The notes: generated by a model not told the origin, from the sequence alone. A stretch of DNA of 40,979 nt from Clostridiaceae bacterium (GCA_039683525.1 JBDKRF010000323.1:1-40979), one strand, 5' to 3'. Positions 3,596 through 21,909 are shown, counted from the stretch's first letter. Numbers and translations: made by a program.

Positions 3596-3830
3596 GTTTT
3601 CTCCACATGAATTTGAATTTTCTTATGTTTTCAGTTCTGTTGATAAAGCACTGTTTTAAATGAAGTTGATCCAACGTATCACGTCGCAGCGCATCAAGTG
3701 CCTCTTTGTCGCTGCTTACCATAGCGCGGATGCCGGAACGGATTGGCGGATAAACGATTCCTTGGGATCGAATAACATGAATTATTATTCGCTCCGGTGT
3801 TACGTTGGCCGAATCAAAGATGCCAGTACA

Positions 3831-4457: not shown

Positions 4458-4559
4458 AGAACGATCCCCTTATCAATTATTTCATTTCTTCAACGGTAGT
4501 AACAAAATCGATCGGAACAATATTACGTAATGGTCTATCAAGTGCCGCCCTGTCGTGTC

Positions 4560-5594
4560 TCACCCAAGCACCGATGCTGGATCCGATTGACGGATATACG
4601 AGTCCCTTGGATCAAACAACATATAGGATTGTCGTTTGATCTGATCCATCTCGTCAACAAAATCATAATAGCCTTCCGGCAACTCGTCCGTTTCAGAATA
4701 CAATTTAGGAAGTTCCCCATGAATTATTTCAAAGGATTCACCGTTGGGTAAGAAGCTCATCGCTCGATAATAATAATCATACGTCATCGAGAGAAATGGC
4801 ATCCCATAGCAGCAAATGAGAAGGTATGATTCCCCTTCGCTCGTATATATCCCCAACGCACAACCTTTCGGGTCAAAGTACGTCTCGGCGGTATAGATCG
4901 CAACAACGGAGTCATTCTGACAGGTAAAAACGGTTAAATTGATTATTTCCTTGCCATATGTATTGTCGAGGATAAGCATTTCTTCCTCACCATCATGCGT
5001 TAAGTCCGCTAAAAAGACATTATATTTGTTCGTCGCATTCTCATATACAGGGTCCTCTAGCTTGTTGTCCCATCCATAATTCTCCGCAAAATATGCATAA
5101 TAGAGCTCCTTCGCTCTTGATGATTGCTCTGTCCGCGGTTGCTGCTCGGGTGCTTCGGTCGGAAGATTCTGTTCGTTCTGTGGCTCTTGTTCGGTCTGCG
5201 GCTCTTGTGCAGACTGACTTGGTTGATATCCGCCAAGCAATCTCGGCAGCAACAGAACGGCTGCGATACAAACAATAGCGGCGGCAACAATCACCACCAC
5301 ATTGTTGTTTGACTTGGTCGAAGGATGAGACTTTCTGCTTTCCTCTGCGCCCGCGCAATATCGGCATACAGTTAACCCTGGCTCGAGTTGTCTTCCGCAT
5401 CTGCCGCAAAACTTTGGTGCACTCTCATGCCCGAACCTGTTTTGTTCGGTGTAGCCTGGTGCGGTGTAGCTAGGTTTAGTGAAGTTTGATGTTGTGTTGT
5501 TTGGTGTCGAGTGGTTTGGCGCGGCTGCCTTGCACATGCGACATGCCGTACACGTATCTGGGTTTTGACAACCGCAGGTCTTACATTTCCACAT
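4560..5594 (-). CDS. Double zinc-ribbon single-pass membrane protein, variable ectodomain A
   Basis: First ribbon MWKCKTCGCQNPDTCTACRMC is RanBP2-type. Second ribbon is CGRCGRQLEPGLTVCRYC. TM is VVVIVAAAIVCIAAVLLLP, followed by a QEPQ-repeat linker. The ectodomain contains LADLTHDGEEEMLIL. RBS AAAGGAAAG. Confidence 0.8.
   Translation of the reverse strand: MWKCKTCGCQNPDTCTACRMCKAAAPNHSTPNNTTSNFTKPSYTAPGYTEQNRFGHESAPKFCGRCGRQLEPGLTVCRYCAGAEESRKSHPSTKSNNNVVVIVAAAIVCIAAVLLLPRLLGGYQPSQSAQEPQTEQEPQNEQNLPTEAPEQQPRTEQSSRAKELYYAYFAENYGWDNKLEDPVYENATNKYNVFLADLTHDGEEEMLILDNTYGKEIINLTVFTCQNDSVVAIYTAETYFDPKGCALGIYTSEGESYLLICCYGMPFLSMTYDYYYRAMSFLPNGESFEIIHGELPKLYSETDELPEGYYDFVDEMDQIKRQSYMLFDPRDSYIRQSDPASVLG
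5160..5594 (-). repeat. Direct repeat copy 1 (about 435 bp, zinc ribbon-TM-linker cassette)
   Basis: Manual alignment to 6386..6820. I counted 12 mismatches in the 194 nt nearest the ATG and fewer further in, so roughly 94-97% identity. Confidence 0.85.
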
Positions 5595-5779
5595 TTTTTT
5601 TGCTTTCCTTTGTTTGCTTTTTGATTCAGCGTATGCGGCCTTGAGTGCTTTTTAAACCCACATTGACATGCAACATTGTAGCAACGCTTATTTGCTGGCT
5701 AAATGCACTCGCCGTTTTGTTCGGTAACGCTGGCGTAGAAGCAATACTTACATATTGCTTTTACATACATCGTCGCGTA

Positions 5780-6820
5780 TCATCCGTTTGCTCGCGAAAC
5801 AGAACACCACGTTTTTTCTGTAAAACTTCCATCCCCGTTGAGCCAATAGAATCGAAACACATAACCTTTATATTCAAATTCCGCATCGTACTCTCCGTAA
5901 TAATGCGACATACCTTGTTGCTTGAGCGACTCTACCCATGAAAGAAACTCTTCCGGATTGGAAGGATCAAAATCAGGATTTGTCTCAATCATGGATGGGG
6001 TAAGGACTGAGGGTTGATTGATCCATTCGCGATAAAGATTTGCAATACTAATCTCGACTGAATCGCAATCGTCACCGTCTCTGAATGTATCCATATCGTC
6101 CAATTGCCAATGCTCATACTCTACGTAAAAATCTTCGGATGTCCAGGTATACCAGTATTCAGTAGGAACGACAAGTTCGCCAAAATCAAAACGATGATCT
6201 TGAGAATGCTCAAAAATAATCCTGTTTGCTCCATTAACATCGAATAAAACTTGCGAAACTCCACCCAATGTTTGTTCGACTTCGGAAAATGAAAGCCCTA
6301 GAAAGCGAATATTGTCATCTAGGAGGATTGCATCACACAAGGAGGTCAGCGATTTCACCTCTTGTGCTTCTTCTTGCTTAGGAGCCGGAGGATTTTGCTC
6401 AAACTGCGGCTCTTGCACAGTCTGCGGCTCTTGTACAGACTGACTCGGTTGATACCCGCCAAGCAATCTCGGCAGTAACAGAACGGCTGCGATACAAACA
6501 ATAGCGGCTGCAACAATCACCACCACATTGTTGTTTGACTTTGTCGAAGGATGAGACTTTCTACTTTCCTCTGCGCCCGCGCAATATCGGCATACAGTTA
6601 ACCCTGGCTCGAGTTGTCTTCCGCATCTGCCGCAAAACTTTGGTGCACTCTCATGCCCGAACCTGTTTTGCTCGGTGTAGCCTGGTGCGGTGTAGATAGG
6701 TTTAGTGAAGTTTGATGTTGTGTTGTTTGGTGTTGAGTAGTTGGGCGCTGCTGCCTTGCACATGCGACATGCCGCACATGTATCCGGATTTTGACACCCG
6801 CAGGTCTTGCATTTCCACAT
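5780..6820 (-). CDS. Double zinc-ribbon single-pass membrane protein, variable ectodomain B (paralog of 4560..5594)
   Basis: The first roughly 145 aa are nearly identical to 4560..5594 (7 substitutions). The C-terminal roughly 200 aa are unrelated. RBS AAGGGAAA. Confidence 0.8.
   Translation of the reverse strand: MWKCKTCGCQNPDTCAACRMCKAAAPNYSTPNNTTSNFTKPIYTAPGYTEQNRFGHESAPKFCGRCGRQLEPGLTVCRYCAGAEESRKSHPSTKSNNNVVVIVAAAIVCIAAVLLLPRLLGGYQPSQSVQEPQTVQEPQFEQNPPAPKQEEAQEVKSLTSLCDAILLDDNIRFLGLSFSEVEQTLGGVSQVLFDVNGANRIIFEHSQDHRFDFGELVVPTEYWYTWTSEDFYVEYEHWQLDDMDTFRDGDDCDSVEISIANLYREWINQPSVLTPSMIETNPDFDPSNPEEFLSWVESLKQQGMSHYYGEYDAEFEYKGYVFRFYWLNGDGSFTEKTWCSVSRANG
6386..6820 (-). repeat. Direct repeat copy 2 (about 435 bp, zinc ribbon-TM-linker cassette)
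   Basis: Same alignment as copy 1. The copies are offset by 1226 bp in the same orientation. Confidence 0.85.
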
Positions 6821-6866
6821 TTTTCCGTTTCCCTTTGTACGTTCTAAATTGCTCGTTTCTATTACG

Positions 6867-7739
6867 CTAACTCATAATCAGGTTTGTGATCTTGCAGTTG
6901 ACGGTGTTCGAATAAGGATTGTATTGCTTCGGAGGTTGAACCGCTACCTCGGAAAAAGAGATCTCTCTCTCAAAAACTATATCGTATGTGCATTCTGAGT
7001 CGTTTTGTAATGTAATGTCCTGAATATAGACCCAGTCCGTTCCGTTCTCACGAACCCAAACCGACCATTGATCACCGATGATATCGCCGTTCGTTAGAAC
7101 TGACTTGAAAGTAAGTGTAAATCCGTAACAGTTCGTCACCATCGGCGTAACTTGATAAACCGGGCCAACATAGCTCTTCATGGTTCGGTTTCCGGACCAG
7201 CAAAACTCATATCTCTGATCGTTTCCTGTTGTGAGATAATAAGTTATGGTTATGTTCTTTCCATCCGTTCCGATGATCGGTATCGGTTCATTGTATCCCA
7301 GACCTGGATCAACCAATATGTTTCCGGCATTGATTGTGCCATCGGGCGAGCAAGTAACCCCTACATCGTTTGCTGCACATGACCAGGTCATATGATCAGC
7401 GTCATCCCCTGACAGGCCAAAATCGCTAGTGCTACATTGGTAAATTTGTCGGAAGTTCAATGTCAGATAAACCGGCTCAAAGGCTGTGACTGCTTGTGCA
7501 GATACAGTGCTCAGCACTGGGTTACCTCGTGTTTGATTGCTTAATAAGAATACGATAAGGCCAACGATCAGCGCCGCAATCGTGATCGCGATCACTTTAA
7601 AAGAGGCTGAGCACTTCTTCCGATTTGTTCTCTGTTTCTTTTCTTCCAACAACGTCTCAACTTCATACGCTTTTCCGCATACTATACACGCAGATTGTTC
7701 GTCTTCATTAATCGTTTCGCAACAGGTACATTTCCACAT
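6867..7739 (-). CDS. Zinc-ribbon (RanBP2-type) single-pass membrane protein, variable ectodomain C
   Basis: MWKCTCCETINEDEQSACIVC fits the RanBP2 spacing. TM is FKVIAITIAALIVGLIVFLL. The roughly 210-aa ectodomain is beta-rich. RBS AGAGGATGGG. Confidence 0.75.
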   Translation of the reverse strand: MWKCTCCETINEDEQSACIVCGKAYEVETLLEEKKQRTNRKKCSASFKVIAITIAALIVGLIVFLLSNQTRGNPVLSTVSAQAVTAFEPVYLTLNFRQIYQCSTSDFGLSGDDADHMTWSCAANDVGVTCSPDGTINAGNILVDPGLGYNEPIPIIGTDGKNITITYYLTTGNDQRYEFCWSGNRTMKSYVGPVYQVTPMVTNCYGFTLTFKSVLTNGDIIGDQWSVWVRENGTDWVYIQDITLQNDSECTYDIVFEREISFSEVAVQPPKQYNPYSNTVNCKITNLIMS

Positions 7740-7815
7740 TATCCCATCCTCTAATCCGATTCACACATCGAATCATCCTATTCCATATCTTTGCTTCGTC
7801 TTAATGAAAAGAACG

Positions 7816-9009
7816 TTATGGCATTTTCACAAATATGCAACCGACGGTAACATAAGCGTAGAAGCTCAACTCTGTTGCCACTCCATCAACGATTGTGACG
7901 ACGGGCATGCTTAGGCTAGAAAAGAACGATTCGAAGCACTTTTCCGGATGATCGACGAATAAGTAATACTGATCGAGCGCAGAACCAACTGCACCTTCAT
8001 CGTTATATACCGTTAACGTCGCTGGAACACGAAACTGAATGCGCTCTTCCAATAAATGCAGTGCCCAGTAACTTCCCCATCCGCTCGCATCTACCAGCAC
8101 ATAATCCCAACCTTGGTTTCTAAAATAATTCGCATGCGGAAACGCATCCACCTTAAGAATGAGACGCGTGTCCCGCCCGTATTCGATGATTTGATTCTCT
8201 TCATCAAACACATAAGCCTCTCCATTCGGGTCTGGATTGATCGACGCCCCATAATTAAAATTACTATCGTTCAGAACGTAATACCGTTCTGATTTCAGCT
8301 CGCCAATCTTCCCGGTTAGCAAGTCAACATATCCATTGGCAAGTATTGTCTGATACTCACTCTCGGAAAACACAACCTCTTTGTCATGTGTGATATATGC
8401 GTCAACGATGATCTCATTTGCCTGTTGGTCAAGATTTGCGGAAGCAACATAGACGCGCGCATCCGTATATGTAACGTTTGTCTTTGGTTGCTCGCTTTGC
8501 TGTGCGGGCGGAGTCTCTTGATCGGTTCCAGTTTCTTGCTCGTTTTCGACATTCGCAGCAGCCCCATCGTTACCGTCGTTCACGTTAGGGGCATCCGCGA
8601 TAGGAGCATCCGAGTTGTTCTCTTCAACTGGTGTTGACTCAACCTGCAAGGTATCGTTCGCGTGTACAGGCGAAATCATACCTGACACTGCGGCTACCCC
8701 AACTAAAAAAACGACCGCAGCAGCGGAGATTGTTGCGATCTTAACAACAGAACGCACACGATCGAATGAGGTTCCCTTCATTCGGTACGTCGTCGGTTCT
8801 GTAACACCCGGTCTGCAGTAGCGGCAAGTCGTCTCGCCTTCCATCAACGGTTTCCCGCATTTGCCACAATAGCGCTCAACTCGGTCCGTCTTAAAGACAG
8901 GGCGCTCTCTTCTAGGTTCGGCAACGCCTGATGATTTGCTTGCCCTGCACATGCGGCAACTCATAACGGGATCCGGGTTTTGACATCCGCAGGTTTTACA
9001 TTTCCACAT
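7816..9009 (-). CDS. Double zinc-ribbon single-pass membrane protein, variable ectodomain D
   Basis: The track ORF extends to 9045. I prefer the ATG at 9009, which gives MWKCKTCGCQNPDPVMSCRMC, because GAGAGGAA sits 7-8 nt upstream and the start then matches the paralogs. Second ribbon is CGKCGKPLMEGETTCRYC. TM is VVKIATISAAAVVFLVGVAAV. Confidence 0.75.
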   Translation of the reverse strand: MWKCKTCGCQNPDPVMSCRMCRASKSSGVAEPRRERPVFKTDRVERYCGKCGKPLMEGETTCRYCRPGVTEPTTYRMKGTSFDRVRSVVKIATISAAAVVFLVGVAAVSGMISPVHANDTLQVESTPVEENNSDAPIADAPNVNDGNDGAAANVENEQETGTDQETPPAQQSEQPKTNVTYTDARVYVASANLDQQANEIIVDAYITHDKEVVFSESEYQTILANGYVDLLTGKIGELKSERYYVLNDSNFNYGASINPDPNGEAYVFDEENQIIEYGRDTRLILKVDAFPHANYFRNQGWDYVLVDASGWGSYWALHLLEERIQFRVPATLTVYNDEGAVGSALDQYYLFVDHPEKCFESFFSSLSMPVVTIVDGVATELSFYAYVTVGCIFVKMP

Positions 9010-9080
9010 GTTACCATTCCTCTCGATACTCACGTCAATGCTCACCTAGATCGTCTCGCAATCTCAATCGTATTCATTCT

Positions 9081-10850
9081 TTATGATTGATGAACTCGAA
9101 GCGCGCTTAGAAAGCGGCCCATCTGTTCGTTAGAAATCAAATCCAAGCAAATCTGTTGCGGTGCCTCATCACTCTGATCGCGATAGATCTCGCCGTCTCT
9201 GTTCGCAACACTCAGGATCAGTTCCGTATGCATCGGTAATCTGGCTTGCGATGCACTCTGTATAATCACGCAAGTCTTGTATGCACGATTTCCAAACAAA
9301 GGCAACGTCTCCAAATCTGATTTAGTCAGTTCTGCACCTTCAAGTACGAAAAGAACCACAAATCGATTCTTTACTTCCTCTGCATCCTGACCATGTTGAC
9401 CCAACATACGACTGCGTTGTTCAAATACGGATCGGACGGCACTTACTTCATCCCCATTTGTTTCTATAATCTGTTGTACATGCGGCAGTTGAGATATCTT
9501 TGCCCAGTCTGTTGCATTCTTTTCCGCTCCCACGAGAACAAATTCAACTTCTTCCGGACTATGAAACGTCGCAAGCTGAATAATGATGCTTTGTATGACC
9601 GGAGACGTTTCGTTTGGGTCTCCTAGCATGCCAATCATCGACTGCATTTTCAGATCGAGTAGCACTGGCGCCGGAGAGATATAGCGGTGTGCTTCCACAA
9701 GATCGCGCATTCGCGTATGCAGTTCCGCTTCTCTTTCTTCATAAGATATTGGGCTCATCAAGATGCCTAGTTCGAACGCTCGCTCTCCTCTTCCTACTCG
9801 CACGCAAAGAAAATCATCATCCTTCTCCGTACGTTCCCAGATTCTCTCACTGCGAGATTTCATCAAAGCGATGCAACCCTCAATCGAGGGATTTTGTAAA
9901 GTCAACATCTGCAGCTGACGCTCGGCTCGCTGATTCCAAGCGTGCTCTAGCTTCTCCAAGTACTCGATATACTGAAGCTTCTTCCATTCTTGATTTGCAC
10001 GCCATTGTGAGGTTTGTAACAGATACTCAGCTATCCCTCCAGATAGTCCGACCACAAACATTGCGCCGATGAGTGCCGCATAGAACGACAAACTCGAGGC
10101 ATGCGAAAGCAAGATCATCACAAGAAGCGTAGTGATCAAAGATAGCACGATCGACGGCGCGAAAAATACGTACTTCCAGTTCGCTCGAAACAAACCATCA
10201 ACCTTTGGTGGTGGTTCGATCATAATCTCTTCAATCGGGGTATCATTGTAGAATCGATTCGTTCCTCGTTTGTCAAATGGGCGCGGTATTCTCCAAGCGC
10301 GCTTAGCAATCTCATCTTCTTTGATCAAGACAGATTTCTCTTGCTCTGTTGCTCGAAGGGTATTACTGTTCGGTTTCTCCGCGTGGTGAAAGCTTGCGAT
10401 ATGAAACCAAGGCGAGCGCGTGCTGTAATCATTCTCACCAACAGCCGAACTTACACTTGCAGGAGGATTGCTCGATTTTTTGAATAGCATGTCATTGCTC
10501 GTTGCCGAGGACTCGGTATCGCGCAAACTCACACTGCTCGACGCCGGACTTTTCATGCTAATGCCGGGTGCGCTAAACCGAGCTGGATGAAACGCGGTTC
10601 GAGCCTCAACTATATCCAATGTTTCAGAGGAGCGCTCCGCCTTCATTGCGGCACGGGTGTTTTCATTCTCCGCTTTGTTGGTATCATACTGTGCAAACCG
10701 CGCAGGATGAAAGCCATCTCCAGCGCCATGTTTTGCTTCGGTTGGAGGTTGGCCATCCAGAACAATCAGTTGCTTTGTCATCCGCCTGCCGCAGAGGTTG
10801 CAAAACTGCACCCCTGCCGGATTCAGATGCCCGCACTCGAAACAGCGCAT
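9081..10850 (-). CDS. Zinc ribbon + Ser-rich linker + 2 TM + EssC/EccC N-terminal-like (pre-ATPase) domain, with no FtsK ATPase domains
   Basis: N-terminal ribbon is MRCFECGHLNPAGVQFCNLC. FHPARF occurs twice in the linker. The two TMs are YVFFAPSIVLSLITTLLVMILL and FYAALIGAMFVVGLSGGIAEYLL. After them come YIEYLEKLEHAWNQRAERQ, ERIWERTEKDDDFLCVRVGRGE, IIIQLATFHSPEEVEFVLV and WAKISQLPHV. These follow my remembered pattern of the region after the TMs in T7SS EssC/EccC (lWeR..d.dFl.vRvG.g ... hsP.d ... W.W.kWLPH). No Walker A is visible. Confidence 0.6.
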   Translation of the reverse strand: MRCFECGHLNPAGVQFCNLCGRRMTKQLIVLDGQPPTEAKHGAGDGFHPARFAQYDTNKAENENTRAAMKAERSSETLDIVEARTAFHPARFSAPGISMKSPASSSVSLRDTESSATSNDMLFKKSSNPPASVSSAVGENDYSTRSPWFHIASFHHAEKPNSNTLRATEQEKSVLIKEDEIAKRAWRIPRPFDKRGTNRFYNDTPIEEIMIEPPPKVDGLFRANWKYVFFAPSIVLSLITTLLVMILLSHASSLSFYAALIGAMFVVGLSGGIAEYLLQTSQWRANQEWKKLQYIEYLEKLEHAWNQRAERQLQMLTLQNPSIEGCIALMKSRSERIWERTEKDDDFLCVRVGRGERAFELGILMSPISYEEREAELHTRMRDLVEAHRYISPAPVLLDLKMQSMIGMLGDPNETSPVIQSIIIQLATFHSPEEVEFVLVGAEKNATDWAKISQLPHVQQIIETNGDEVSAVRSVFEQRSRMLGQHGQDAEEVKNRFVVLFVLEGAELTKSDLETLPLFGNRAYKTCVIIQSASQARLPMHTELILSVANRDGEIYRDQSDEAPQQICLDLISNEQMGRFLSALRVHQS

Positions 10851-10912
10851 TTCGTGTCCTCAATGAAACACAATCTATTTACATCTTGCGTTCCTTGTAT
10901 GAATCTGGACGA

Positions 10913-11926
10913 TTAATTCAGTACGCGTGGTTTATGCCACACGGAAGAAGCATCCTGCTCATCCTTAGGTTTTGCAGGGACTGGAGGGGGTTCAGGGGGC
11001 GTATGACCACCAGGAATGCGTTTGCCTTGCAGCGTCTCAAAAACCTCTTTCGTTGTCGGACGTTTTGCTGGATCTCGCTCCAGCATGCTCGCAATCAAGT
11101 TCTTCAGATCACCGGGAAGTCTTGTGTCGAGAAAGAGAGTTCGGCCGTCCAGCACGGCTTCATGCGCGTAAGAGTAGTCGCTACTGAAGCGTGGAAGTTC
11201 GCCAGTGTAGTATTGATGGAACAGCAATCCCAAAGCAAAGACATCGACTTTTGTAGTGAGTTTTACGTCTTCGCCCTGATCCGCTAATAATGTTTCAGGT
11301 GCGAGATATACAACATCTCCTTCAACCCTGTCATCCTTTTCTCTTTCTTTCTCCAGATAGCTGCTGTCAAAATCGATCAACTTCGCCGTAAGTGATTTTG
11401 ATTTGCCAGTACCTACAGTGGTTTCCTTGATCAAGACATTGCTCGGTTTCAAGTCGGCGTGCACAACCTCATTAGCGTGAAGGCTTGCCAGGCTGTGCGC
11501 AATCACCTTCATCAGAACGACCTTTACGTCATTATCCCTCGACGCAATCTGCTTCATCTCCAAGTTTGCCGTATCGATCTTTTGCGTCGTAATATAATAC
11601 TTTGTGTCGTTGAAGAAGAATGCATCGATAGTTACGATATTTCCAGTAGCACTCTGATTCACCGCGTAGTAAAGGCGGGTCATCTTCTGATAGAATTTGT
11701 CGCCTTCTTTACGTTTTCGCGCAATGATGTCCGCCGGAATACCGCAACCCTCGCGCGGACATACCGGCGAAAGGAATTGCTTGATAAAATACTCCCGACC
11801 GTCCTTGACAGCAAACGCCCACAGCCCGTTGCCCGAGTTCTTGTTCGTTAACTGCGTAATGAGTTGATAATCCCGAATCTTTTGCAACTCTGGCGTTGCT
11901 CTGCTCACCGTTCTCTTGATACCCAT
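10913..11926 (-). CDS. Hanks-type Ser/Thr protein kinase, cytoplasmic, non-RD
   Basis: Catalytic loop VVHADLKPSNVLI (HxDLKPxN, with Ala where RD kinases have Arg). DFDSS replaces DFG. Also YLAPE, DVFALGLL and ERDPAKRPT, plus a Pro-rich tail. The ATG at 11926 overlaps the PP2C stop by 22 nt. Confidence 0.85.
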   Translation of the reverse strand: MGIKRTVSRATPELQKIRDYQLITQLTNKNSGNGLWAFAVKDGREYFIKQFLSPVCPREGCGIPADIIARKRKEGDKFYQKMTRLYYAVNQSATGNIVTIDAFFFNDTKYYITTQKIDTANLEMKQIASRDNDVKVVLMKVIAHSLASLHANEVVHADLKPSNVLIKETTVGTGKSKSLTAKLIDFDSSYLEKEREKDDRVEGDVVYLAPETLLADQGEDVKLTTKVDVFALGLLFHQYYTGELPRFSSDYSYAHEAVLDGRTLFLDTRLPGDLKNLIASMLERDPAKRPTTKEVFETLQGKRIPGGHTPPEPPPVPAKPKDEQDASSVWHKPRVLN

Positions 11927-12894
11927 CCCATACCTCTTGCTTCTCGATCAAACTTCTTATACTCATTCCAGAGTCGAATCAGTCCGTCGCGATCGTTCTG
12001 AGCTTGCATCCTTGCGATCGGCTCGCTATAGAGTCTGCGGTAGTCGTTCATACGTGGTCGATACGCATCCTTCAACGCCTGAAAAGTTCTGTGTCCAACG
12101 ATAGCCATCTGAAGCGTATAATCGTCTGATGCAACATGACCAATCCTTTCTCTTAGAAGTTGCTCCCATTCCAAGAGGCTCTTTGCTTCCATCAATGTCT
12201 CCAGAAGAATGCCCTCAAAATCCATGGGTGTTTCGTAATAAGCATAGCATCCGTCCGTTACCGTGAGCGCAATCATCGGGGAATCAACAAACGTCTCTCT
12301 GGAATGAATGATAAAATCTTTTTGTTGGTTCACATAGTTCGACAATACACCGTCTGCCGCAAAATCATCATCATCCGAGTTAACTTGTAAATCGTCCTTC
12401 GTCATCTGCCGAAGACCTTTTACCGTGAAGAGATAGCCACGAGAGTCACCCGCCCACAAGAAGACACAACGAATTTTTCCCGATCGATCTTGTTCCAACA
12501 TAAAGCTGGACATCGTAGTCGGCAGCGTACTCGGCAAGCTCCCTTTGATTGCGGAGCGCGGTTGATCAAGGCAACTATATGTATCATCAAATGTGGTTCG
12601 GATCGCCACTTTCATATCGTTTGCCAACGTTTCAGCACTGATCATACCGAACCCGTTTGAATCATATCTATTTTGCGTAAACCAATCCCCCACAGCATGA
12701 GCACAGCTATATGCGGCAATTTTTGCGCCTGTCCAGCCTTCGGCTGAGGGGTACCGTTTTGAACCGGAACCCCCGCAACCATCAAAACTGCATAATATAG
12801 CAGCTATGTCACCTTCAACCCGAAGCGCAGAATCCTCACCCATTCCTACTCGCTTCTCTTCATTGACCCCAATGATGCCGTCCAAATTTGTCAT
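11905..12894 (-). CDS. PP2C-family Ser/Thr phosphatase
   Basis: Motifs GEDSAL, SFDGCGGSGS, LWAGDSRGYLF, LTVTDGCYAY and SDDYTLQMAIV follow the PP2C motif order. No TM. Confidence 0.8.
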   Translation of the reverse strand: MTNLDGIIGVNEEKRVGMGEDSALRVEGDIAAILCSFDGCGGSGSKRYPSAEGWTGAKIAAYSCAHAVGDWFTQNRYDSNGFGMISAETLANDMKVAIRTTFDDTYSCLDQPRSAIKGSLPSTLPTTMSSFMLEQDRSGKIRCVFLWAGDSRGYLFTVKGLRQMTKDDLQVNSDDDDFAADGVLSNYVNQQKDFIIHSRETFVDSPMIALTVTDGCYAYYETPMDFEGILLETLMEAKSLLEWEQLLRERIGHVASDDYTLQMAIVGHRTFQALKDAYRPRMNDYRRLYSEPIARMQAQNDRDGLIRLWNEYKKFDREARGMGWVSRER

Positions 12895-12933
12895 GGATTC
12901 TCCTTCTTCAGAAAGCTTTTGAACTTGTATTAT

Positions 12934-13614
12934 TTAAATGGAGTTCGAGATCGCATCAATGATCTCTGAGTAATCGACTTCCATCAGCCCTTGTCCAGCA
13001 ATTGATGGGAAATGAATCACATTATCCCAATTATCTGAGATCGTATTCCAATATGGCGCGTCAGGCGCAAAGATAACAAGCCGCTTCTCATTGTTATTGA
13101 TATATTCGTCATTCTCCCACCAAAGGGTTAGCTCGCCAAAATCACGCGGTAAGCCGGATGGATAATTCGAGTCACATGCTCCAAATCCCAGCTCATGCGT
13201 TGCGGCATCGGTCCAGACGACGATTACTTGACGGTGTTTCCCGCCTTGAGATCTATCCCAGTCCGAGCGAATTGCATACGCTAGCGCTTCGAGTCCATCT
13301 TCGGGATCATCGCCACCGCCTTTTGCCTCTATCCCAGTCACGATGTTCCGGAAGAGCACTGAATCGTCAGGCAATGTGAAAAAGTCCGTCTGTAGCATTG
13401 CGTCCTCATGATCATACTTGTAATCCCGAAAAGCTATAATGCTGATACGCATCCTTGCAATAGTTTTCTCTTTTTTTGCCATCGCGTTCATGACATCTTG
13501 GTAGAAGTTGAGAGCATTGTTCTTGACCATTTCGATTACATTGTGCATGCTCCGGGTTGCGTCGATGCAGAAAGTCAGATCGACATAGTATTCCTGTTTG
13601 ATATTGCTGGGCAT
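12934..13614 (-). CDS. Cytoplasmic von Willebrand factor A (vWA) domain protein, TerY-like
   Basis: MIDAS-like DLTFCIDATRSM (D-x-T-x-S). Also GGGDDPEDGLEALAYAI and VIVVWTDAATHE. No signal peptide. Confidence 0.8.
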   Translation of the reverse strand: MPSNIKQEYYVDLTFCIDATRSMHNVIEMVKNNALNFYQDVMNAMAKKEKTIARMRISIIAFRDYKYDHEDAMLQTDFFTLPDDSVLFRNIVTGIEAKGGGDDPEDGLEALAYAIRSDWDRSQGGKHRQVIVVWTDAATHELGFGACDSNYPSGLPRDFGELTLWWENDEYINNNEKRLVIFAPDAPYWNTISDNWDNVIHFPSIAGQGLMEVDYSEIIDAISNSI

Positions 13615-13654
13615 AGTTTTTCGTTCCTTTCTTATTTTGCAGTTTTGAGTTTAT

Positions 13655-15253
13655 CTATAGTTTCTTTGGGCGCTTAAAGTAGCTGTTCGCTTCGGGGTCG
13701 GTCGGCGTAGTCGAAGTTGCAGTGGGAGCGCTAATTGTAGATTTCAGTTTTGCTTTCGGTTCTAGAGGCTTATCCGCTGATTCCGTTGAAACTCGACCTG
13801 CTCCGCTTTCCGCTTCGGTGTGCATGGAGGATTTCATCCGTGGCGCAGGCGTCGATGTCGAGCTGCTTTTCTCTTTAGTAGACGCGCCCATGCTGGATTT
13901 CAGCGCCGGCTTTTTAAAGTGCCCATCCGTTACAATCCCGCTGCCCGAACGCTTTTCGTCTTCAGGAGTGTTCATATCGTGGGAGGTTTTCAGCCCACCC
14001 TTAACGAAACCGCCAGAGCCGGATTGGCCATTATCTGCATCGTACGTTCTGTGCCCCGTCTCTGACCCTCGGAAAACGGAGGTGGGCTTCTCTTCTCCAC
14101 ACTTTGCACAGAAATGAGCATCATTTCTTAGTCCGCAACGTGGGCATGTCCATCTACTTTCCGGAGGAGGAGGGGGAAACTCCAGACCATCAATTCTTTC
14201 TCCGCCCGATCCCCGCTTGCCTTTTTTCGCAATCAGAAGGTATATCCCACCTCCGAGGAGCGCAAGCAGCGCGACCCCTCCTGCAATCAGCAATACATTT
14301 GGTCCGCCTGTTGGTGTCTGATTTATGTCTGTTGATGAATCTGGCGGAACAACAGCTTCTTCCGGTGTCGCAGCGGGTTCTTCCACCGGAGCCTGGATCG
14401 GCTCTTCTGGAACTGCTTGCGGCACTTCAGGTGCAGGCGTCGATGTTTGCGGTACAGGCGTTGCCGCTTGGGTACCATCCGATTTTTCGTAAGCAATGCC
14501 TGAGTTGTTCAGAAAATCCATTGCATAATCGATATAAAGTGCAAAATTCGTGTTTTGTGCATCTATTGCTCCGCAAGAAACGATACCTACTACACATCCG
14601 TCCTCCGTGACTAACGGACCTCCTGAGTTTCCAGAGTTAATCGACGTATCAATTTGAATGTATTGATCATTTTCCAACGTACTGGATTCACGAGTCACAG
14701 AGCCTTTCGTTACAGTTATATAGTCAATTGAAGATGCCATTACATCTTCAGATGAGCCAACTTCAGCGGACCACGGAAATCCCATGGCGTATACAGTGTC
14801 TGTGACTGCTACTTTCTCGGCAGATTTCAATGTCAGTGCGCTGCGCGTCGTCGTTGGAGCATTTAGCTTTAGAATAGCCAAATCGACATTGTCGAATATC
14901 TTAACAACTTGACAATTCATCGTTAAGTCAGAGTTGTATATTGTATCTATGACCGCAACACAATAGATACTGGGGTCTTCTTCGTAATAATAATCACTAC
15001 CGTCATACGTATTAGCGGAACCAGCTACATGGGCATTGGTTACGATATATTCTACCGGCTTACCAGCTTCTCCAACAAAGAACCCTGTTCCCCAACCTAT
15101 GATTTCCCCGGTCTCTTTATCTACGACAGCAATCCGAACTACACCGTTCCGCGCATCCTGAACGGGGCTTGAAGCTTGAGCAGTAGCAAGCGGCAGCATG
15201 AGCAGCAGAACCAAAGCCACGAAGATTGCTTGAATTCTTTTCAACTTTTTCAT
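13655..15253 (-). CDS. Type I membrane-anchored trypsin-like (S1) serine protease with a cytoplasmic C-terminal zinc ribbon and Ser/Thr-rich tail
   Basis: Signal peptide MKKLKRIQAIFVALVLLLMLPLATAQA. Catalytic triad contexts are VTNAHVAG, NVDLAILKL and GNSGGPLV. A Pro-rich linker leads to TM LLIAGGVALLALLGGGIYLLIA. The ribbon is WTCPRCGLRNDAHFCAKCG. The roughly 150-aa S/T/K-rich tail ends in SYFKRPKKL. Confidence 0.85.
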   Translation of the reverse strand: MKKLKRIQAIFVALVLLLMLPLATAQASSPVQDARNGVVRIAVVDKETGEIIGWGTGFFVGEAGKPVEYIVTNAHVAGSANTYDGSDYYYEEDPSIYCVAVIDTIYNSDLTMNCQVVKIFDNVDLAILKLNAPTTTRSALTLKSAEKVAVTDTVYAMGFPWSAEVGSSEDVMASSIDYITVTKGSVTRESSTLENDQYIQIDTSINSGNSGGPLVTEDGCVVGIVSCGAIDAQNTNFALYIDYAMDFLNNSGIAYEKSDGTQAATPVPQTSTPAPEVPQAVPEEPIQAPVEEPAATPEEAVVPPDSSTDINQTPTGGPNVLLIAGGVALLALLGGGIYLLIAKKGKRGSGGERIDGLEFPPPPPESRWTCPRCGLRNDAHFCAKCGEEKPTSVFRGSETGHRTYDADNGQSGSGGFVKGGLKTSHDMNTPEDEKRSGSGIVTDGHFKKPALKSSMGASTKEKSSSTSTPAPRMKSSMHTEAESGAGRVSTESADKPLEPKAKLKSTISAPTATSTTPTDPEANSYFKRPKKL

Positions 15254-15285
15254 CCTATACCTCGCATTATTTCTCTTTGGTCAAA

Positions 15286-16269
15286 CTAGAACCCTTTGGG
15301 GCGCTTAAAGTATGAATCTGGAGTCCTAGCAGGTGGGGTTGTCCTCGGGGGTTCCGGCACAACTTCGCGAGAACCACTTGCAGATCCCCCTGTCGGCGTT
15401 TTTGATCGACCACAAATGGTGCAGAAGCTCATTGTGTTACGCGTTCCGCAACCTGTACAAACCCATGTGCCCGGTTCATCAGAGCGCACGGTCGTCCCTG
15501 TTCGAGTGTGCGTGGTGGTTTCCCTACCATAGGTTCTGCTTCTGTCGGCTGCTTCAATCTCGACATAATAGCCCGCAAGAGAGGTCATATAGTAGGGCAT
15601 AACATAGAAAACGCCCAAGATTCCCAGTGTCAGCAGGTTGAGCAGATGCCAGCCGATAAAGCTCAACTCCAGAACAAAGATGTCGAGTTTTCTCCCTTCC
15701 GTCATCTGAATGGATCGTTTTAGCGCCTGCTGTGAAGTCATCTCCGGATGATCCATGAGAATGAATGGAGTCAGGCAATACGAATAGACCTTGATCACGT
15801 TCATCACGGGAATGCAACCCCAAAGCGCACACCAAAGCAACCACCAAAGGGTGCCACCCAGCATGTGAGAGTAATTCTTGAAACCGAGATGCGCATCCTT
15901 CACTTCAATATGTTGCTTCCGGTAAAGTTTTACACCCGCGTACAGCTGACCGCACTGGAGAATCTGCAGATAAAAGATGCAGGCAAAGAAGAAACCGACC
16001 GGCCACGCTAGAGTGAAAATCAAGCCGATGACCAAGCCAACACCTATCTCAATCCCAAGCACGGCGAGCCATAACCGAACGGTCGTTTTGCTTTGCAGCG
16101 AAATTGCGATTTTCGCGTTCTGTTTGATGACGCTGCGCGTCGGAATTGGCGATGCTGAATATGGCAGCGATCCGCTTCCATAAGTGCTGGTAGAAGCAGC
16201 TTCTCTTGCACCGCAATGTGTGCAGAACATGCTGTCATTTCTCGTTCCGCATGACGGACAAGTCCACAT
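15286..16269 (-). CDS. DUF975-like polytopic membrane protein flanked by N- and C-terminal zinc ribbons
   Basis: N-terminal ribbon MWTCPSCGTRNDSMFCTHCG and C-terminal ribbon WVCTGCGTRNTMSFCTICG. The DUF975-like core includes LSFIGWHLLNLLTLGILGVFYVMPYY. The protein ends in SYFKRPKGF. Confidence 0.75.
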   Translation of the reverse strand: MWTCPSCGTRNDSMFCTHCGAREAASTSTYGSGSLPYSASPIPTRSVIKQNAKIAISLQSKTTVRLWLAVLGIEIGVGLVIGLIFTLAWPVGFFFACIFYLQILQCGQLYAGVKLYRKQHIEVKDAHLGFKNYSHMLGGTLWWLLWCALWGCIPVMNVIKVYSYCLTPFILMDHPEMTSQQALKRSIQMTEGRKLDIFVLELSFIGWHLLNLLTLGILGVFYVMPYYMTSLAGYYVEIEAADRSRTYGRETTTHTRTGTTVRSDEPGTWVCTGCGTRNTMSFCTICGRSKTPTGGSASGSREVVPEPPRTTPPARTPDSYFKRPKGF

Positions 16270-16294
16270 ATCATTATCCTCCTGTTTGTTATCT

Positions 16295-17092: not shown

Positions 17093-17138
17093 ATATATCT
17101 CCCTCAATTCATATCAAATCCCGATATATCTTCACTCA

Positions 17139-17852: not shown

Positions 17853-18008
17853 GAATCTACCCCCGATTTTTATATTGTTGCTTTTTTATATTTCAGCTAT
17901 GAAAGACGTTTTTTTCTTTGGACAACTATAAGGTAACGTATTTTTCACCGCCCTGCGTTTTTCGTGTTGATACAGCGCAGAAAATGTAACGAAATGCAGC
18001 TTCATTTT

Positions 18009-18713: not shown

Positions 18714-18733
18714 ATCTGCTTATCCATCTCCAT

Positions 18734-19453: not shown

Positions 19454-19577
19454 GCAAAAAAGATCCCCCGCCTTGTTCTTGCGAAATCTACAACCAACGA
19501 GTCATATTACTGTAAATCATCTTACCGCTGTTATTTCTTACTTGGTTTTCTTTTGCGATACCAGGTCAACTTGCTCC

Positions 19578-21809: not shown

Positions 21810-21909
21810 TTTCTCCCAAGAATTCAGATTTTTTGTATATGACTGCTCAATCGTGCTTGAATATCTTTGCCGAAACAGCAATGTATTAAGCACAGATCGT
21901 TTATTCTGG

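What the first reader, a model, noticed from the sequence alone, without database searches (positions are those of the whole stretch)
9081..10850. EssC/EccC-like membrane stalk with no ATPase domains and a zinc ribbon where EssC has FHA domains
After two TM helices the protein carries motifs that I recognise as the conserved juxtamembrane region of type VII secretion FtsK-family ATPases. They are YIEYLEKLE, ERIWERTEKDDDFLCVRVGRGE, QLATFHSPEEVEFVLV and WAKISQLPHV.

The protein stops about 115 aa later without any Walker A/B ATPase domain, and no ATPase gene is nearby.

Firmicute EssC has N-terminal FHA domains, which read out phospho-Thr. Here that position is occupied by a zinc ribbon and a Ser-rich linker, next to a kinase/phosphatase pair.

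This looks like an exapted T7SS scaffold fragment used as a membrane hub.
Basis: partly seen in the sequence, partly recalled or inferred. Interest (0 to 1): 0.65.

Follow-up and report, generated by a model that had tools for sequence, protein, structure and literature searches.

The report
Motor-less type VII secretion channel protein
An uncultured Clostridia bacterium keeps only the membrane-channel half of the type VII secretion ATPase EssC, with a zinc ribbon at the front and no motor domains, inside a kinase/phosphatase/vWA operon. This looks like a secretion-machine part reused for a job that needs no ATP motor.

Summary
ORF 9081..10850 (-), 589 aa, reads: 4-Cys zinc ribbon, S/T-rich linker, two TM helices, stalk, and the EssC/EccC DUF (D0) domain. 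Residues 197-588 match EssC model TIGR03928 positions 9-407 of 1296 (E 1e-46). They align to B. subtilis YukB 227-619, and a confident AF2 model (pLDDT 89.6) hits the YukB and EccC stalk+DUF structures.

The protein stops at the D0/D1 boundary. No D1-D3 sequence exists in the window or within ±10 kb of ten related loci. It is not an artefact. Ten full-length homologues down to 43% identity are 588-592 aa, and a second subfamily at 30% identity is about 594 aa. Short forms are monophyletic (100/100), dN/dS is 0.28-0.42, and synteny is conserved.

One correction: the C-terminal 200 aa are a degenerate FtsK-like ATPase fold, as in every EssC.

The closest full-length relative is a genuine zinc-ribbon EssC. 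It sits in a T7SSb locus (YukD, WXG100) behind the same DUF975-vWA-PP2C-kinase cassette. All three zinc-ribbon EssC loci examined carry such a triad.

Most likely function, inferred: a phospho-regulated oligomeric membrane platform derived from the T7SSb channel. I rate it a new variant of a known kind.

The parts
10773..10850 (-). N-terminal 4-Cys zinc ribbon (residues 1-26, MRCFECGHLNPAGVQFCNLCG). It occupies the position held by two FHA domains in canonical EssC.
   Evidence: Pfam Zn_Ribbon_1 and DZR hits below the curated cut-off (E 5e-4). C3, C6, C17 and C20 are invariant in 11 homologues. dN/dS is 0.15-0.29.
10296..10772 (-). Cytoplasmic, probably disordered linker (residues about 27-185), 20% Ser+Thr. 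It carries three conserved short motifs: FHPARF (47), FHPARF (87) and FHIASF (149).
   Evidence: Composition and motif positions are. F47, A50, R51, F87, A90, R91, F149, H150 and A152 are invariant in an otherwise poorly conserved stretch. dN/dS is 0.54-0.85. Similar motifs occur in P0015 (FHTARF) and P0016 (FRFASF).
10170..10295 (-). Pre-TM linker (residues 186-227), including WRIPRPF and EEIMIEPPPK. It is equivalent to the YukB FHA-stalk linker 219-240, which contacts the DUF of the neighbouring subunit.
   Evidence: The profile aligns to YukB from residue 227. W186, P189, R190, F192, D203, P205, E208, M210, I211, P214, P215 and K216 are invariant. The role of the YukB linker is from PMC12637312.
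10023..10175 (-). Two transmembrane helices (about 226-248 and 254-276), the hairpin that forms the channel in T7SS.
   Evidence: Hydropathy. AF2 helices at model positions 45-64 and from 69. The TM and stalk segment has the lowest dN/dS in the protein, 0.10-0.23.
9681..10022 (-). Stalk: a long cytoplasmic helix continuing from TM2 (residues about 277-390), followed by a small beta element. It carries YIEYLEKLE and ERIWERTEKDDDFLCVRVGRGE.
   Evidence: AF2 shows a continuous helix at model positions 69-134 and strands at 164-180, with pLDDT above 90. Foldseek matches the YukB and EccC stalk+DUF.
9084..9680 (-). DUF/D0 domain (residues about 391-589), a degenerate FtsK-like alpha/beta fold. The P-loop position reads GMLGDPNETS (407), with no lysine. 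The Walker B position reads VVLFVLEGAE (498) and is not conserved as D/E.
   Evidence: The D1 P-loop region of P0012 aligns here (tblastn E 2e-5). Pfam FtsK_SpoIIIE gives a weak hit at 417-476. Foldseek hits the EccC5 DUF crystal structure 8rin (E 3.6e-10) and the FtsK motor 6t8g (E 5e-7). The family alignment shows D, N or K at the would-be lysine position.
9081..9083 (-). TAA stop codon at the D0/D1 boundary. A 72-nt spacer follows, then the next gene, a zinc-ribbon membrane protein (ATG at about 9008).
   Evidence: Sequence read. All homologues end within ±3 residues of this point. In full-length EssC the profile end maps to about residue 600-615, before D1.
10913..11926 (-). Ser/Thr protein kinase (337 aa) with catalytic-loop and activation motifs HADLKPSN, DFD and APE. 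Its extreme C-terminus is VWHKPRVLN.
   Evidence: Pfam Pkinase, E 2.6e-29. 47% identical to the kinase upstream of the full-length zinc-ribbon EssC in L005. dN/dS is 0.05-0.09.
11905..12894 (-). PP2C-like phosphatase (329 aa) with invariant DGCGG, GDSRG, TDGC and SDD motifs.
   Evidence: Alignment A4. There is only a weak HMM hit (NCBIfam Stp1, E 0.02). The proteins at the equivalent position in L056 and L057 hit Pfam PP2C_2.
12934..13614 (-). vWA (TerY-like) protein of 226 aa. It is the third member of the vWA-PP2C-kinase triad.
   Evidence: Pfam VWA_4, E 3.8e-9. 65% identical to the L005 orthologue.
13655..16269 (-). Two membrane partners conserved with the triad. One is a trypsin-like protease with TM, zinc ribbon and S/T-rich tail (13655..15253). 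The other is a zinc ribbon-DUF975-zinc ribbon protein (15286..16269). Both end in YFKRPKxΦ.
   Evidence: Pfam Trypsin_2 (E 8e-23) and DUF975 (E 1.5e-25). Synteny is conserved in L001, L003, L006, L009, L011 and L012.
2453..21893 (-). The whole low-GC gene cluster, all on the - strand, in which the EssC fragment is embedded. At least 10 proteins have an N-terminal zinc ribbon plus a TM helix. It also holds a second vWA, a LytTR response regulator and an RCC1-like surface protein.
   Evidence: ORFs and Pfam hits. Zinc-ribbon and TM census. GC is 45-49% against 56-63% in the adjacent aromatic amino-acid (shikimate pathway) operon and arylsulfotransferase gene. An AT-rich 5' region and a terminator-like hairpin at 2310-2285 bound it.

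Best explanation
The gene encodes a naturally motor-less derivative of the type VIIb secretion ATPase EssC. Its layout is zinc ribbon, S/T-rich linker with three FHxARF motifs, pre-TM linker, two TM helices, stalk, and the degenerate DUF/D0 domain. It ends at the D0/D1 boundary.

Shown:
- It is homologous to the channel and oligomerisation module of EssC/YukB/EccC.
- The truncation is ancient, monophyletic and maintained under purifying selection.
- The gene is fixed immediately downstream of a vWA-PP2C-Ser/Thr kinase triad.
- The closest full-length relative has the same zinc ribbon and an orthologous cassette. There the cassette precedes a complete T7SSb with YukD and WXG100 genes.

Inferred:
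- An ancestral zinc-ribbon EssC T7SSb under control of the triad lost D1-D3 and its YukD/WXG100 genes.
- The surviving half still oligomerises through its TM, stalk and D0 contacts, as YukB does. It serves as an ATP-independent membrane platform.
- The kinase and PP2C phosphorylate and dephosphorylate the cytoplasmic linker. The zinc ribbon and short motifs dock triad components and the many zinc-ribbon-anchored membrane proteins of the operon.
- It does not act as a secretion motor.
For: Homology and domain limits:
- TIGR03928, E 1e-46, over model positions 9-407.
- Family profile to YukB 227-619, E 3e-27.
- AF2 model with pLDDT 89.6 and pTM 0.83.
- Foldseek top hits are YukB stalk+DUF 9qks (E 3.5e-18), EccC5 and EccC3, then the FtsK motor.

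Not an artefact or a relic:
- Ten full-length homologues are 588-592 aa at 43-96% identity.
- The P0015 subfamily is about 594 aa once its zinc-ribbon start is restored.
- Short forms are monophyletic in 100 of 100 bootstraps.
- dN/dS is 0.28-0.42 overall and 0.10-0.23 in the TM and stalk.
- Many residues in the pre-TM linker and D0 are invariant.
- No D1-D3 sequence occurs in the window or in 10 related loci.

Context:
- The order DUF975, trypsin, vWA, PP2C, kinase, EssC-N is conserved in every short-form locus long enough to show it.
- The same cassette, 42-65% identical, precedes the full-length zinc-ribbon EssC P0016 together with YukD, three WXG100 genes and DUF4176.
- Two further zinc-ribbon EssC loci also have vWA, PP2C and a kinase upstream.

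Mechanistic precedent:
- In YukB the DUF, stalk and TM segments form the central channel and make the YukB-YukB contacts. The FHA-stalk linker binds the neighbouring DUF (PMC12637312).
- The EccC5 DUF is a degenerate, non-hydrolysing ATPase fold that may still hexamerise (10.1101/2024.01.26.577026).
- In other triad loci the gene after the kinase is a different membrane-transport component. It is an FHA plus ABC-ATPase protein whose N-terminal short motifs resemble those of this system. This suggests that position holds the regulated output.
Against: - No experiment or co-structure shows oligomerisation, phosphorylation or binding. All of the functional part is inference.
- In S. aureus an engineered EssC lacking D1-D3 reached the membrane but did not co-purify with EsaA, EssA or EssB. 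D2 was needed for complex assembly (PMC9436818). Assembly without D1-D3 is therefore not a given.
- The protein evolves 3-6 times faster (by dN/dS) than the neighbouring triad genes. It is only 27% identical to the N-terminal part of P0016, whereas the cassette proteins are 42-65% identical.
- Most vWA-PP2C-kinase loci lack any EssC-like gene, so it is an accessory part of the system, not a core part.
- The rest of the genome was not available. A complete T7SS or a separate D1-D3 protein elsewhere cannot be excluded.
Confidence: 0.5

Rival explanations
1. It is a phospho-gated pore. The motor-less EssC channel would be the effector of a TerY-P-like defence or conflict module. On a trigger such as phage attack or envelope damage, the kinase/phosphatase switch would drive oligomerisation or opening of the TM-stalk ring. 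That would permeabilise or depolarise the membrane, or release something passively, without ATP.
For: TerY-P-like triads are reported as stand-alone anti-phage systems and as parts of conflict systems (PMC11090510). The kinase's best PADLOC hits are defence kinases, mad6 and PD-T4-6. The gene sits in the 'output' position directly after the kinase. The TM and stalk segment is the most constrained part of the protein. The cluster is a low-GC island. Part of the operon shows mosaic divergence between near-identical strains.
Against: PADLOC has no match for the vWA, the PP2C or the EssC fragment. No phage genes or other defence genes lie nearby. Most of the operon encodes surface and membrane proteins plus a LytTR regulator, which looks more like envelope signalling. 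There is no evidence that a DUF-stalk-TM ring can open without the motor.
Confidence: 0.15
2. It is a trans-acting partner of a complete T7SSb encoded elsewhere in the genome. The fragment would co-assemble with full-length EssC as a regulatory, gating or decoy subunit. Alternatively it would work with a separately encoded soluble D1-D3 protein, as a split EssC like EccCa/EccCb.
For: EccC is naturally split in ESX-1. That statement rests on my own knowledge and was not checked here. Soluble EssC-like D1-D3 proteins without TM segments exist next to TerY-P triads in CoCoNuT loci, which is the exact complement of this protein (PMC11090510). The oligomerisation surfaces are retained. Only 41 kb of the genome was seen.
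Against: No D1-D3, WXG100, YukD or DUF4176 sequence occurs in the window or within ±10 kb of ten short-form loci. The N-terminal module has diverged strongly from full-length EssC, at 19-27% identity, which argues against mixed rings. In S. aureus, EssC lacking D1-D3 was not dominant-negative when expressed in wild type.
Confidence: 0.15
3. It is a decaying relic: a non-functional remnant of a T7SSb locus that lost its motor and substrates, persisting only by chance.
For: Its dN/dS (0.28-0.42) is clearly higher than that of its neighbours (0.05-0.10). The family is rare, with about a dozen 90% clusters among 5.8 billion proteins, and none in 185,579 GTDB species representatives. Sister triad systems work without it.
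Against: The reading frame is intact with constant length across lineages whose synonymous sites are saturated, and down to 30% identity. dN/dS is well below 1 in every structured segment. About 140 columns are invariant, including the four zinc-ribbon cysteines. Position in the operon is conserved. Short forms are monophyletic, which implies long persistence after a single loss.
Confidence: 0.05
4. It is a sequencing or assembly artefact: a frameshift or mis-join near 9081 hides a downstream ATPase continuation.
For: None found.
Against: The stop is a clean TAA, followed by a spacer, a ribosome-binding site and an unrelated zinc-ribbon gene. The same end point appears in independent assemblies from ENA, Logan and JGI. 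No frame downstream resembles FtsK domains.
Confidence: 0.01

Closest known systems
EssC / YukB, the membrane FtsK-family ATPase of type VIIb secretion in Bacillota (TIGR03928; structure 9qks)
   Same: It shares the pre-TM linker, two TM helices, stalk and DUF/D0 domain. Alignment runs end to end with YukB 227-619 and EssC model positions 9-407. The predicted fold is the same. The host is a Bacillota (Clostridia) organism. The closest full-length relative is a genuine EssC that passes the curated cut-off.
   Different: There are no D1, D2 or D3 ATPase domains. A zinc ribbon replaces the two FHA domains. No YukD, WXG100, EssB, EsaA or DUF4176 genes lie nearby. It scores 159 bits against a curated cut-off of 778.
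EccC DUF domain of mycobacterial ESX systems (structures 7np7, 6sgw and 8rin)
   Same: It is a degenerate ATPase-like fold directly after the stalk and lacks functional Walker motifs. Matches are E 2e-39 to TIGR03924 positions 2-380, and Foldseek E 9e-16 (7np7) and 3.6e-10 (8rin).
   Different: Sequence identity is only 14-20%. ESX partners (EccB, EccD, EccE, MycP) are absent. In EccC the DUF is always followed by D1-D3, or by D1 in EccCa.
Engineered S. aureus EssC lacking D1-D3 (Bobrovskyy et al. 2022, PMC9436818)
   Same: It has the same C-terminal domain content: TM helices plus D0, with no D1-D3.
   Different: The laboratory construct keeps the FHA domains, is secretion-dead and fails to pull down EsaA, EssA or EssB. 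The natural protein has evolved for a long time in this state, carries a zinc ribbon and short motifs, and sits in a different operon.
TerY-P triad (vWA, PP2C, Ser/Thr kinase) and its reported links to FtsK/WXG100 minimal T7SS genes. The primary source, Anantharaman et al. 2012, was not readable here; I rely on PMC11090510 and PMC4978471, which cite it.
   Same: The operon has a vWA-PP2C-kinase triad adjacent to an EssC-family gene. Relatives have the kinase fused to a C-terminal zinc ribbon, as in classical TerY-P. An association of TerY-P triads with EssC-like proteins is already described.
   Different: The described EssC-like partners are soluble D1-D3 proteins with coiled coils and no TM segments, in proteobacterial McrBC/CoCoNuT loci. 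This protein is the converse: TM, stalk and D0 only. PADLOC models do not match this vWA or PP2C.
Zinc-ribbon EssC T7SSb variant (P0016, P0037, P0071 and four other cluster representatives). I found no description of it in the literature searched.
   Same: It has the same N-terminal zinc ribbon and linker motif type (FRFASF). The same upstream cassette is present (DUF975)-vWA-PP2C-kinase. P0016 is the nearest full-length relative by HMM score and by distance.
   Different: Those proteins keep D1-D3 with Walker A motifs, and their loci keep YukD and WXG100 genes.

Membership tests
EssC (T7SSb ATPase, TIGR03928 equivalog) | Whole-protein score above the curated HMM cut-off (778.4 bits) | tested here: not met
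   The score is 159.1 bits and covers only model positions 9-407 of 1296. The full-length relative P0016 scores 1018.7 bits.
EssC (T7SSb ATPase, TIGR03928 equivalog) | Two TM helices followed by a stalk and the DUF/D0 domain | tested here: met
   HMM and profile alignments, hydropathy, the AF2 model and Foldseek hits to 9qks, 7np7 and 6sgw.
EssC (T7SSb ATPase, TIGR03928 equivalog) | Three C-terminal FtsK/SpoIIIE ATPase domains (D1-D3), with Walker A and B motifs in D1 and D2 | tested here: not met
   The protein ends at the D0/D1 boundary. It has no GxxxxGK[ST] motif. No D1-D3 sequence occurs in the window or in related loci.
EssC (T7SSb ATPase, TIGR03928 equivalog) | Two N-terminal FHA domains | tested here: not met
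   Pfam finds a zinc ribbon and no FHA domain. The N-terminal 185 residues are a zinc ribbon plus a low-complexity linker.
EssC (T7SSb ATPase, TIGR03928 equivalog) | Encoded together with WXG100/EsxA, YukD/EsaB, EssB and EsaA | tested here: not met
   There are no Pfam or NCBIfam hits to these families in the cluster. tblastn with the YukD, WXG100 and DUF4176 proteins of L005 is negative. No intergenic gap in the cluster is large enough for a missed WXG100 gene. The rest of the genome was not seen.
FtsK/SpoIIIE-HerA P-loop ATPases | RecA-like alpha/beta fold of the motor domain | tested here: met
   For the D0 part only: Foldseek hits to FtsK motor domains 6t8g and 2ius at E 5e-7 to 4e-6. The D1 region of P0012 aligns to D0 at E 2e-5.
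FtsK/SpoIIIE-HerA P-loop ATPases | Walker A GxxxxGK[ST] and Walker B hhhhD[DE] | tested here: not met
   The P-loop position reads GMLGDPNETS, and the would-be lysine is D, N or K across the family. The Walker B position reads VLEG or VLQG. DUF domains of EccC are likewise degenerate.
TerY-P triad (operon context) | Adjacent genes for a vWA (TerY-like) protein, a PP2C phosphatase and a Ser/Thr kinase | tested here: met
   VWA_4 at E 4e-9 and Pkinase at E 3e-29. The PP2C-like protein has invariant DGCGG, GDSRG, TDGC and SDD motifs. The gene order is conserved in more than 40 loci.
TerY-P triad (operon context) | Match to the published TerY-P defence-system models, and a kinase fused to a zinc ribbon or OB fold | tested here: not met
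   PADLOC gives no hit for the vWA or the PP2C, and the kinase hits mad6 and PD-T4-6 rather than TerY-P. The window kinase has no zinc ribbon, although related loci such as L019, L041 and L045 (and L032 by reading its translation) do.
TerY-P triad (operon context) | Anti-phage or stress-response activity | not testable with these tools
   This needs an experiment.

The most novel reading that the evidence does not exclude
The FHA-less, zinc-ribbon EssC lineage and its motor-less descendant may reveal a phospho-switch that is ancestral to T7SSb. An active Ser/Thr kinase, a PP2C and a vWA protein would control assembly of the EssC channel through its N-terminal region. On this view the FHA/pseudokinase (EssB) pair of canonical T7SSb is the fossil of that switch. 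In the motor-less form, the channel ring would have been repurposed as a kinase-gated, ATP-independent membrane pore or platform. That would be a secretion-system channel working without its motor.
Probability: 0.15. Interest if true: 0.85.

Novelty: new variant of a known kind. Interest (0 to 1): 0.62.

Why it matters
EssC/EccC is the engine and central channel of type VII secretion. Every described member keeps three ATPase domains, and laboratory truncations are dead for secretion. Here a truncation at the D0/D1 boundary has been conserved and kept under selection.

That shows the TM-stalk-DUF module can have a life of its own. It offers a minimal natural construct for studying how the T7SS channel oligomerises and gates without the flexible ATPase arms.

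The full-length zinc-ribbon EssC relatives are always preceded by a vWA-PP2C-kinase triad. This points to an undescribed, phospho-regulated T7SSb subtype. It bears on a long-standing puzzle: why canonical EssC carries phosphothreonine-reading FHA domains and EssB is a dead kinase.

The finding also extends the range of 'outputs' wired to TerY-P-like triads.

Tried and rejected
- Pfam alone nearly missed the homology, giving only a sub-threshold FtsK_SpoIIIE hit (E 0.014). NCBIfam and PDB searches were needed.
- The two word-indexed homologue searches returned only the family itself. The exhaustive HMMER search was needed to find P0015 and the full-length relatives.
- The first AF2 run, with a 9-sequence alignment, was unusable (pLDDT 52). 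It was replaced by an 80-sequence alignment. That alignment is dominated by EssC homologues, so the agreement in fold is not fully independent of the sequence homology.
- The GTDB genome scan with family-specific peptide patterns found only one distant full-length EssC, in a Bacilli MAG (L004). No named species can therefore be given for the family.
- PADLOC gave no TerY-P match.
- PDB sequence searches gave nothing for the PP2C-like protein or for three uncharacterised proteins of the L005 T7SS locus. I therefore could not tell whether the zinc-ribbon EssC systems lack an EssB pseudokinase.
- The NJ tree did not resolve which full-length EssC is sister to the short forms (P0016 in 22 of 100 bootstraps). 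Derivation from a P0016-like ancestor rests on HMM score, distance, the shared zinc ribbon and the shared cassette.
- I considered that the ΦxxPxxΦ tails of the kinase, DUF975 and protease proteins dock onto D0, mimicking the pre-TM linker. I set that aside as the sole explanation, because the same tails occur in triad loci that have no EssC-like gene.
- Anantharaman et al. 2012 (PMC4104200) could not be read. Its content is cited second-hand.
- Read-level verification of the 3' end was not possible.
Full report
**What is there**

The ORF at 9081..10850 on the minus strand encodes 589 aa. It has a good ribosome-binding site before its ATG. It ends in TAA, followed by 72 nt and then an unrelated zinc-ribbon membrane-protein gene.

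They follow two hydrophobic helices at about 226-248 and 254-276. The N-terminus is a four-cysteine zinc ribbon, and those cysteines are invariant. Residues 26-185 are 20% Ser+Thr against 11% for the rest of the protein.

**Is the EssC/EccC resemblance real?**

Yes, and it covers the whole region from the pre-TM linker to the C-terminus.

- NCBIfam TIGR03928 (EssC) matches residues 197-588 to model positions 9-407 of 1296, at E 1.1e-46. TIGR03924 (EccCa) matches at E 1.7e-39.
- phmmer against PDB sequences finds B. subtilis YukB and mycobacterial EccC3 at about 1e-17.
- A profile of the family aligns end to end with YukB 227-619 at E 3e-27.
- An AlphaFold2 model of residues 186-589, built on an 80-sequence alignment, is confident (pLDDT 89.6, pTM 0.83).
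- Its best Foldseek matches in the PDB are the YukB stalk+DUF (9qks, E 3.5e-18), EccC5 (7np7), EccC3 (6sgw) and the EccC5 DUF crystal structure (8rin). FtsK motor domains follow.

The protein is therefore zinc ribbon, linker, then the TM-stalk-DUF (D0) module of a type VII secretion ATPase.

The last 200 residues or so are not just 'stalk'. They are the DUF/D0 domain, a degenerate FtsK-like ATPase fold. The D1 P-loop region of an EccC-like protein aligns to it at E 2e-5. However, the would-be Walker A reads GMLGDPNETS and the would-be Walker B reads VLEG, and neither is conserved in the family. This agrees with what is reported for EccC DUF domains, which are degenerate, probably non-hydrolysing, and may still hexamerise (10.1101/2024.01.26.577026).

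**Is the truncation real?**

Three lines of evidence say it is.

First, the word-indexed search of 5.8 billion proteins found 11 clusters at 43-96% identity. Every full-length member is 588-592 aa.

Second, an exhaustive HMMER search of 1.84 billion cluster representatives found 3,309 relatives.
- Apart from the family itself, the best hit is P0015. It was called at 533 aa, but its true start is 61 codons upstream and encodes MRCVVCGQQNPDDTRVCRQCG. It is therefore also a zinc-ribbon protein of about 594 aa.
- Nearly all other top hits are full-length EssC proteins of about 1280-1560 aa; a minority are shorter, mostly apparent fragments. In these the family profile ends at residue 600-615, before D1.

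Third, tblastn with D1-D3 of two EssC proteins finds nothing in the window or in any of ten short-form loci with up to ±10 kb of flank.

In a neighbour-joining tree of the shared region, the short forms are monophyletic in 100 of 100 bootstraps. This points to one ancient loss.

Nei-Gojobori dN/dS for the gene, by segment:

| Segment | dN/dS |
|---|---|
| Whole gene | 0.28-0.42 |
| TM and stalk | 0.10-0.23 |
| D0 | about 0.3 |
| Zinc ribbon | 0.15-0.29 |
| Linker | 0.54-0.85 |
| Neighbouring kinase, PP2C and vWA genes | 0.05-0.11 |

The gene is under purifying selection but evolves faster than its neighbours. Pseudogene and assembly artefact are both excluded for practical purposes. Read mapping could not be done.

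**Where it came from**

The closest full-length relative is P0016 (1389 aa).
- It begins MICSKCGYDNLSGIRVCEKCG, so it has a zinc ribbon where canonical EssC has FHA domains.
- It has three Walker A motifs.
- It passes the curated EssC cut-off, at 1019 against 778 bits.

Its locus (L005) reads: DUF975, vWA, PP2C-like, kinase, zinc-ribbon EssC, a 265-aa protein, YukD, three WXG100 genes, two uncharacterised genes, then DUF4176. The four upstream genes are orthologous to those upstream of the window gene, at 42%, 65%, 43% and 47% identity.

Two other zinc-ribbon EssC loci, P0037 in L056 and P0071 in L057 (pig gut), also have vWA, PP2C and a kinase immediately upstream, with YukD (L056 only) and WXG100 genes beside them. 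Seven of the roughly 146 best EssC representatives carry an N-terminal zinc ribbon.

The most economical history is this. A T7SSb subtype with a zinc-ribbon EssC was wired to a vWA-PP2C-kinase triad. One lineage of it then lost D1-D3 and the YukD/WXG100 genes. The tree does not resolve the sister group (P0016 in 22 of 100 bootstraps). This step therefore rests on HMM score, distance, the shared zinc ribbon and the shared cassette.

**Context in the window**

The gene lies in a 19-kb, low-GC (45-49%) minus-strand cluster at 2453..21893. The cluster sits between an arylsulfotransferase gene and a 56-63% GC aromatic amino-acid (shikimate pathway) operon. An AT-rich leader precedes it, and a terminator-like hairpin follows it.

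The cluster encodes:
- at least ten proteins with an N-terminal zinc ribbon followed by a TM helix and an extracellular domain (RCC1-like, CarboxypepD_reg-like, Flg_new and others);
- a second vWA protein;
- a LytTR response regulator with no partner histidine kinase;
- a zinc ribbon-DUF975 membrane protein;
- a trypsin-like protease with TM helix, zinc ribbon and tail;
- the vWA, PP2C-like and kinase genes.

The order DUF975, trypsin, vWA, PP2C, kinase, EssC-N is conserved in every short-form locus long enough to show it. Housekeeping proteins of the contig cluster at 90% or more with proteins named 'Clostridia bacterium' MAGs and 'Clostridiales bacterium 43-6'. The host is therefore an uncultured Bacillota organism, the phylum in which T7SSb occurs.

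A metagenome scan with the PP2C-like protein recovered 40 loci. The vWA-PP2C-kinase triad is much more widespread than the EssC fragment, and most loci have no EssC-like gene. One human-gut locus (L032) has the same LytTR, zinc-ribbon TM, DUF975, trypsin, vWA, PP2C and kinase-zinc-ribbon arrangement without it. In two others, the gene after the kinase encodes N-terminal short motifs, two FHA-like domains and an ABC ATPase. The EssC fragment is thus an accessory 'output' plugged in behind the triad. It is not a core part of the triad system.

**How it probably works**

Published work on B. subtilis shows the following (PMC12637312).
- The YukB DUF, stalk and TM segments form the central channel and make the YukB-YukB contacts.
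- The linker just before the TM helices (219-240) binds loops of the neighbouring DUF.
- The FHA domains bind the YukC pseudokinase.

The window protein keeps the channel and oligomerisation part. Its pre-TM linker is the most invariant stretch of the family: W186, P189, R190, F192, D203, P205, E208, M210, I211, P214, P215 and K216. It replaces the FHA domains with a zinc ribbon and a linker that carries three invariant FHxARF-type motifs.

I therefore infer an ATP-independent oligomeric membrane platform. The adjacent kinase and PP2C would phosphorylate and dephosphorylate its cytoplasmic linker. Its zinc ribbon and short motifs would recruit triad components and the zinc-ribbon-anchored membrane proteins.

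A real caveat comes from S. aureus. An engineered EssC lacking D1-D3 reaches the membrane but neither secretes nor co-purifies with EsaA, EssA or EssB, and it is not dominant-negative (PMC9436818). This argues against a role in a canonical T7SS. It also means that assembly without D2 must have been re-evolved.

The rival readings are:
- a kinase-gated pore acting as the effector of a TerY-P-like conflict system;
- a partner of a T7SS or of a soluble D1-D3 protein encoded elsewhere, noting that CoCoNuT loci contain the exact complement: soluble EssC-like D1-D3 proteins next to TerY-P triads (PMC11090510);
- a relic.

**Comparison with what is known, and novelty**

An association of TerY-P triads with FtsK/WXG100 'minimal T7SS' genes has been noted before. 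I have this second-hand from PMC11090510 and PMC4978471, which cite Anantharaman et al. 2012. That association concerns soluble three-domain ATPases in proteobacterial restriction-like loci.

Full-text searches found no description of either a zinc-ribbon EssC or a natural EssC lacking D1-D3.

The protein fails the defining tests for EssC membership: the curated score, D1-D3, the FHA domains and T7SS partner genes. It is nonetheless an unambiguous homologue of the EssC N-terminal module. I classify it as a new variant of a known kind.

**Verdict**

Confidence in identity and natural truncation is very high. Confidence in the proposed function is moderate. Interest is 0.62.

Noticed in passing
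window 10913-10942 (kinase C-terminus), 13655-13690 (protease C-terminus), 15286-15320 (DUF975 C-terminus); also L001, L005, L006, L019-L047: The kinase, the DUF975 protein and the trypsin-like protease all end in a short motif, [FW]-x-x-P-x-x-[FLI]. Examples are VWHKPRVLN, YFKRPKKL and YFKRPKGF. The motif is kept at the kinase C-terminus in most vWA-PP2C-kinase loci, with or without an EssC gene. The EssC fragment's pre-TM WRIPRPF fits the same pattern. It is probably a shared docking peptide, but the receptor is unknown.
   Followed up: partly
L020 2816-4639; L031 7185-9032: In two triad loci the gene after the kinase encodes three N-terminal 'W-x-x-P-N-G-F'-type motifs, two FHA-like domains and an ABC-transporter ATPase. 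This is an EssC-like N-terminal logic placed on a different motor.
   Followed up: partly
window 13655-14200 (protease tail) and 16295-16325; L001, L006: A second short motif, [RK]-[LM]-K-[ST]-[ST]-M, is repeated in the S/T-rich cytoplasmic tail of the protease. It also sits at the extreme C-terminus of the zinc-ribbon multi-TM protein (…SRLKSTMR) and of a small two-TM protein in the related loci L001 and L006. These are possible kinase substrate sites.
   Followed up: no
L005 (P0016), L056 (P0037), L057 (P0071): Full-length EssC proteins with an N-terminal zinc ribbon instead of FHA domains exist. In all three loci examined they are preceded by vWA, PP2C and kinase genes and accompanied by WXG100 genes (YukD in L005 and L056). 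This appears to be an undescribed, triad-coupled T7SSb subtype.
   Followed up: partly
window 9081-16269 versus L009 4608-11770: The operon is a mosaic between two close strains. The EssC fragment is 97% identical (dS 0.04), DUF975 99% and the kinase 95%. The trypsin-like protease is only 61%, the PP2C 67% and the vWA 85% (dS about 1). This suggests recombination or diversifying replacement of the middle of the operon.
   Followed up: partly
window 11905-11943: The PP2C-like gene has lost its usual stop codon: TAA in L011 is GAA here. It reads on for 12 codons (…KKFDREARGMGWVSRER) and overlaps the kinase start by 22 nt. The six orthologues compared all end …KTFYM or …KKFYR.
   Followed up: yes
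window 2453-21893: The cluster is a low-GC island (45-49%, against 56-63% in the adjacent aromatic amino-acid operon). At least ten of its proteins start with a zinc ribbon followed by a TM helix, most of them MWKCxxCG-type. It also has a LytTR response regulator (18734-19453) with no histidine kinase in the cluster, and a second, divergent vWA gene (18009-18713).
   Followed up: partly
L015 62-2152 (P0146); L014 2715-4127 (P0068): Two other apparently complete short EssC-like ORFs end at the D0 boundary with a stop codon. One has FHA domains (696 aa) and the other has neither FHA domains nor a zinc ribbon (470 aa). They sit on short contigs, so independent truncations, split genes and errors could not be told apart.
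   Followed up: partly
window 33031-35340 and 35970-37055: Outside the cluster lie a PilZ-domain family-2 glycosyltransferase (cellulose-synthase-like) and a PAS plus HD-GYP-type (HD_5) protein. Together they suggest c-di-GMP-controlled exopolysaccharide synthesis nearby.
   Followed up: no
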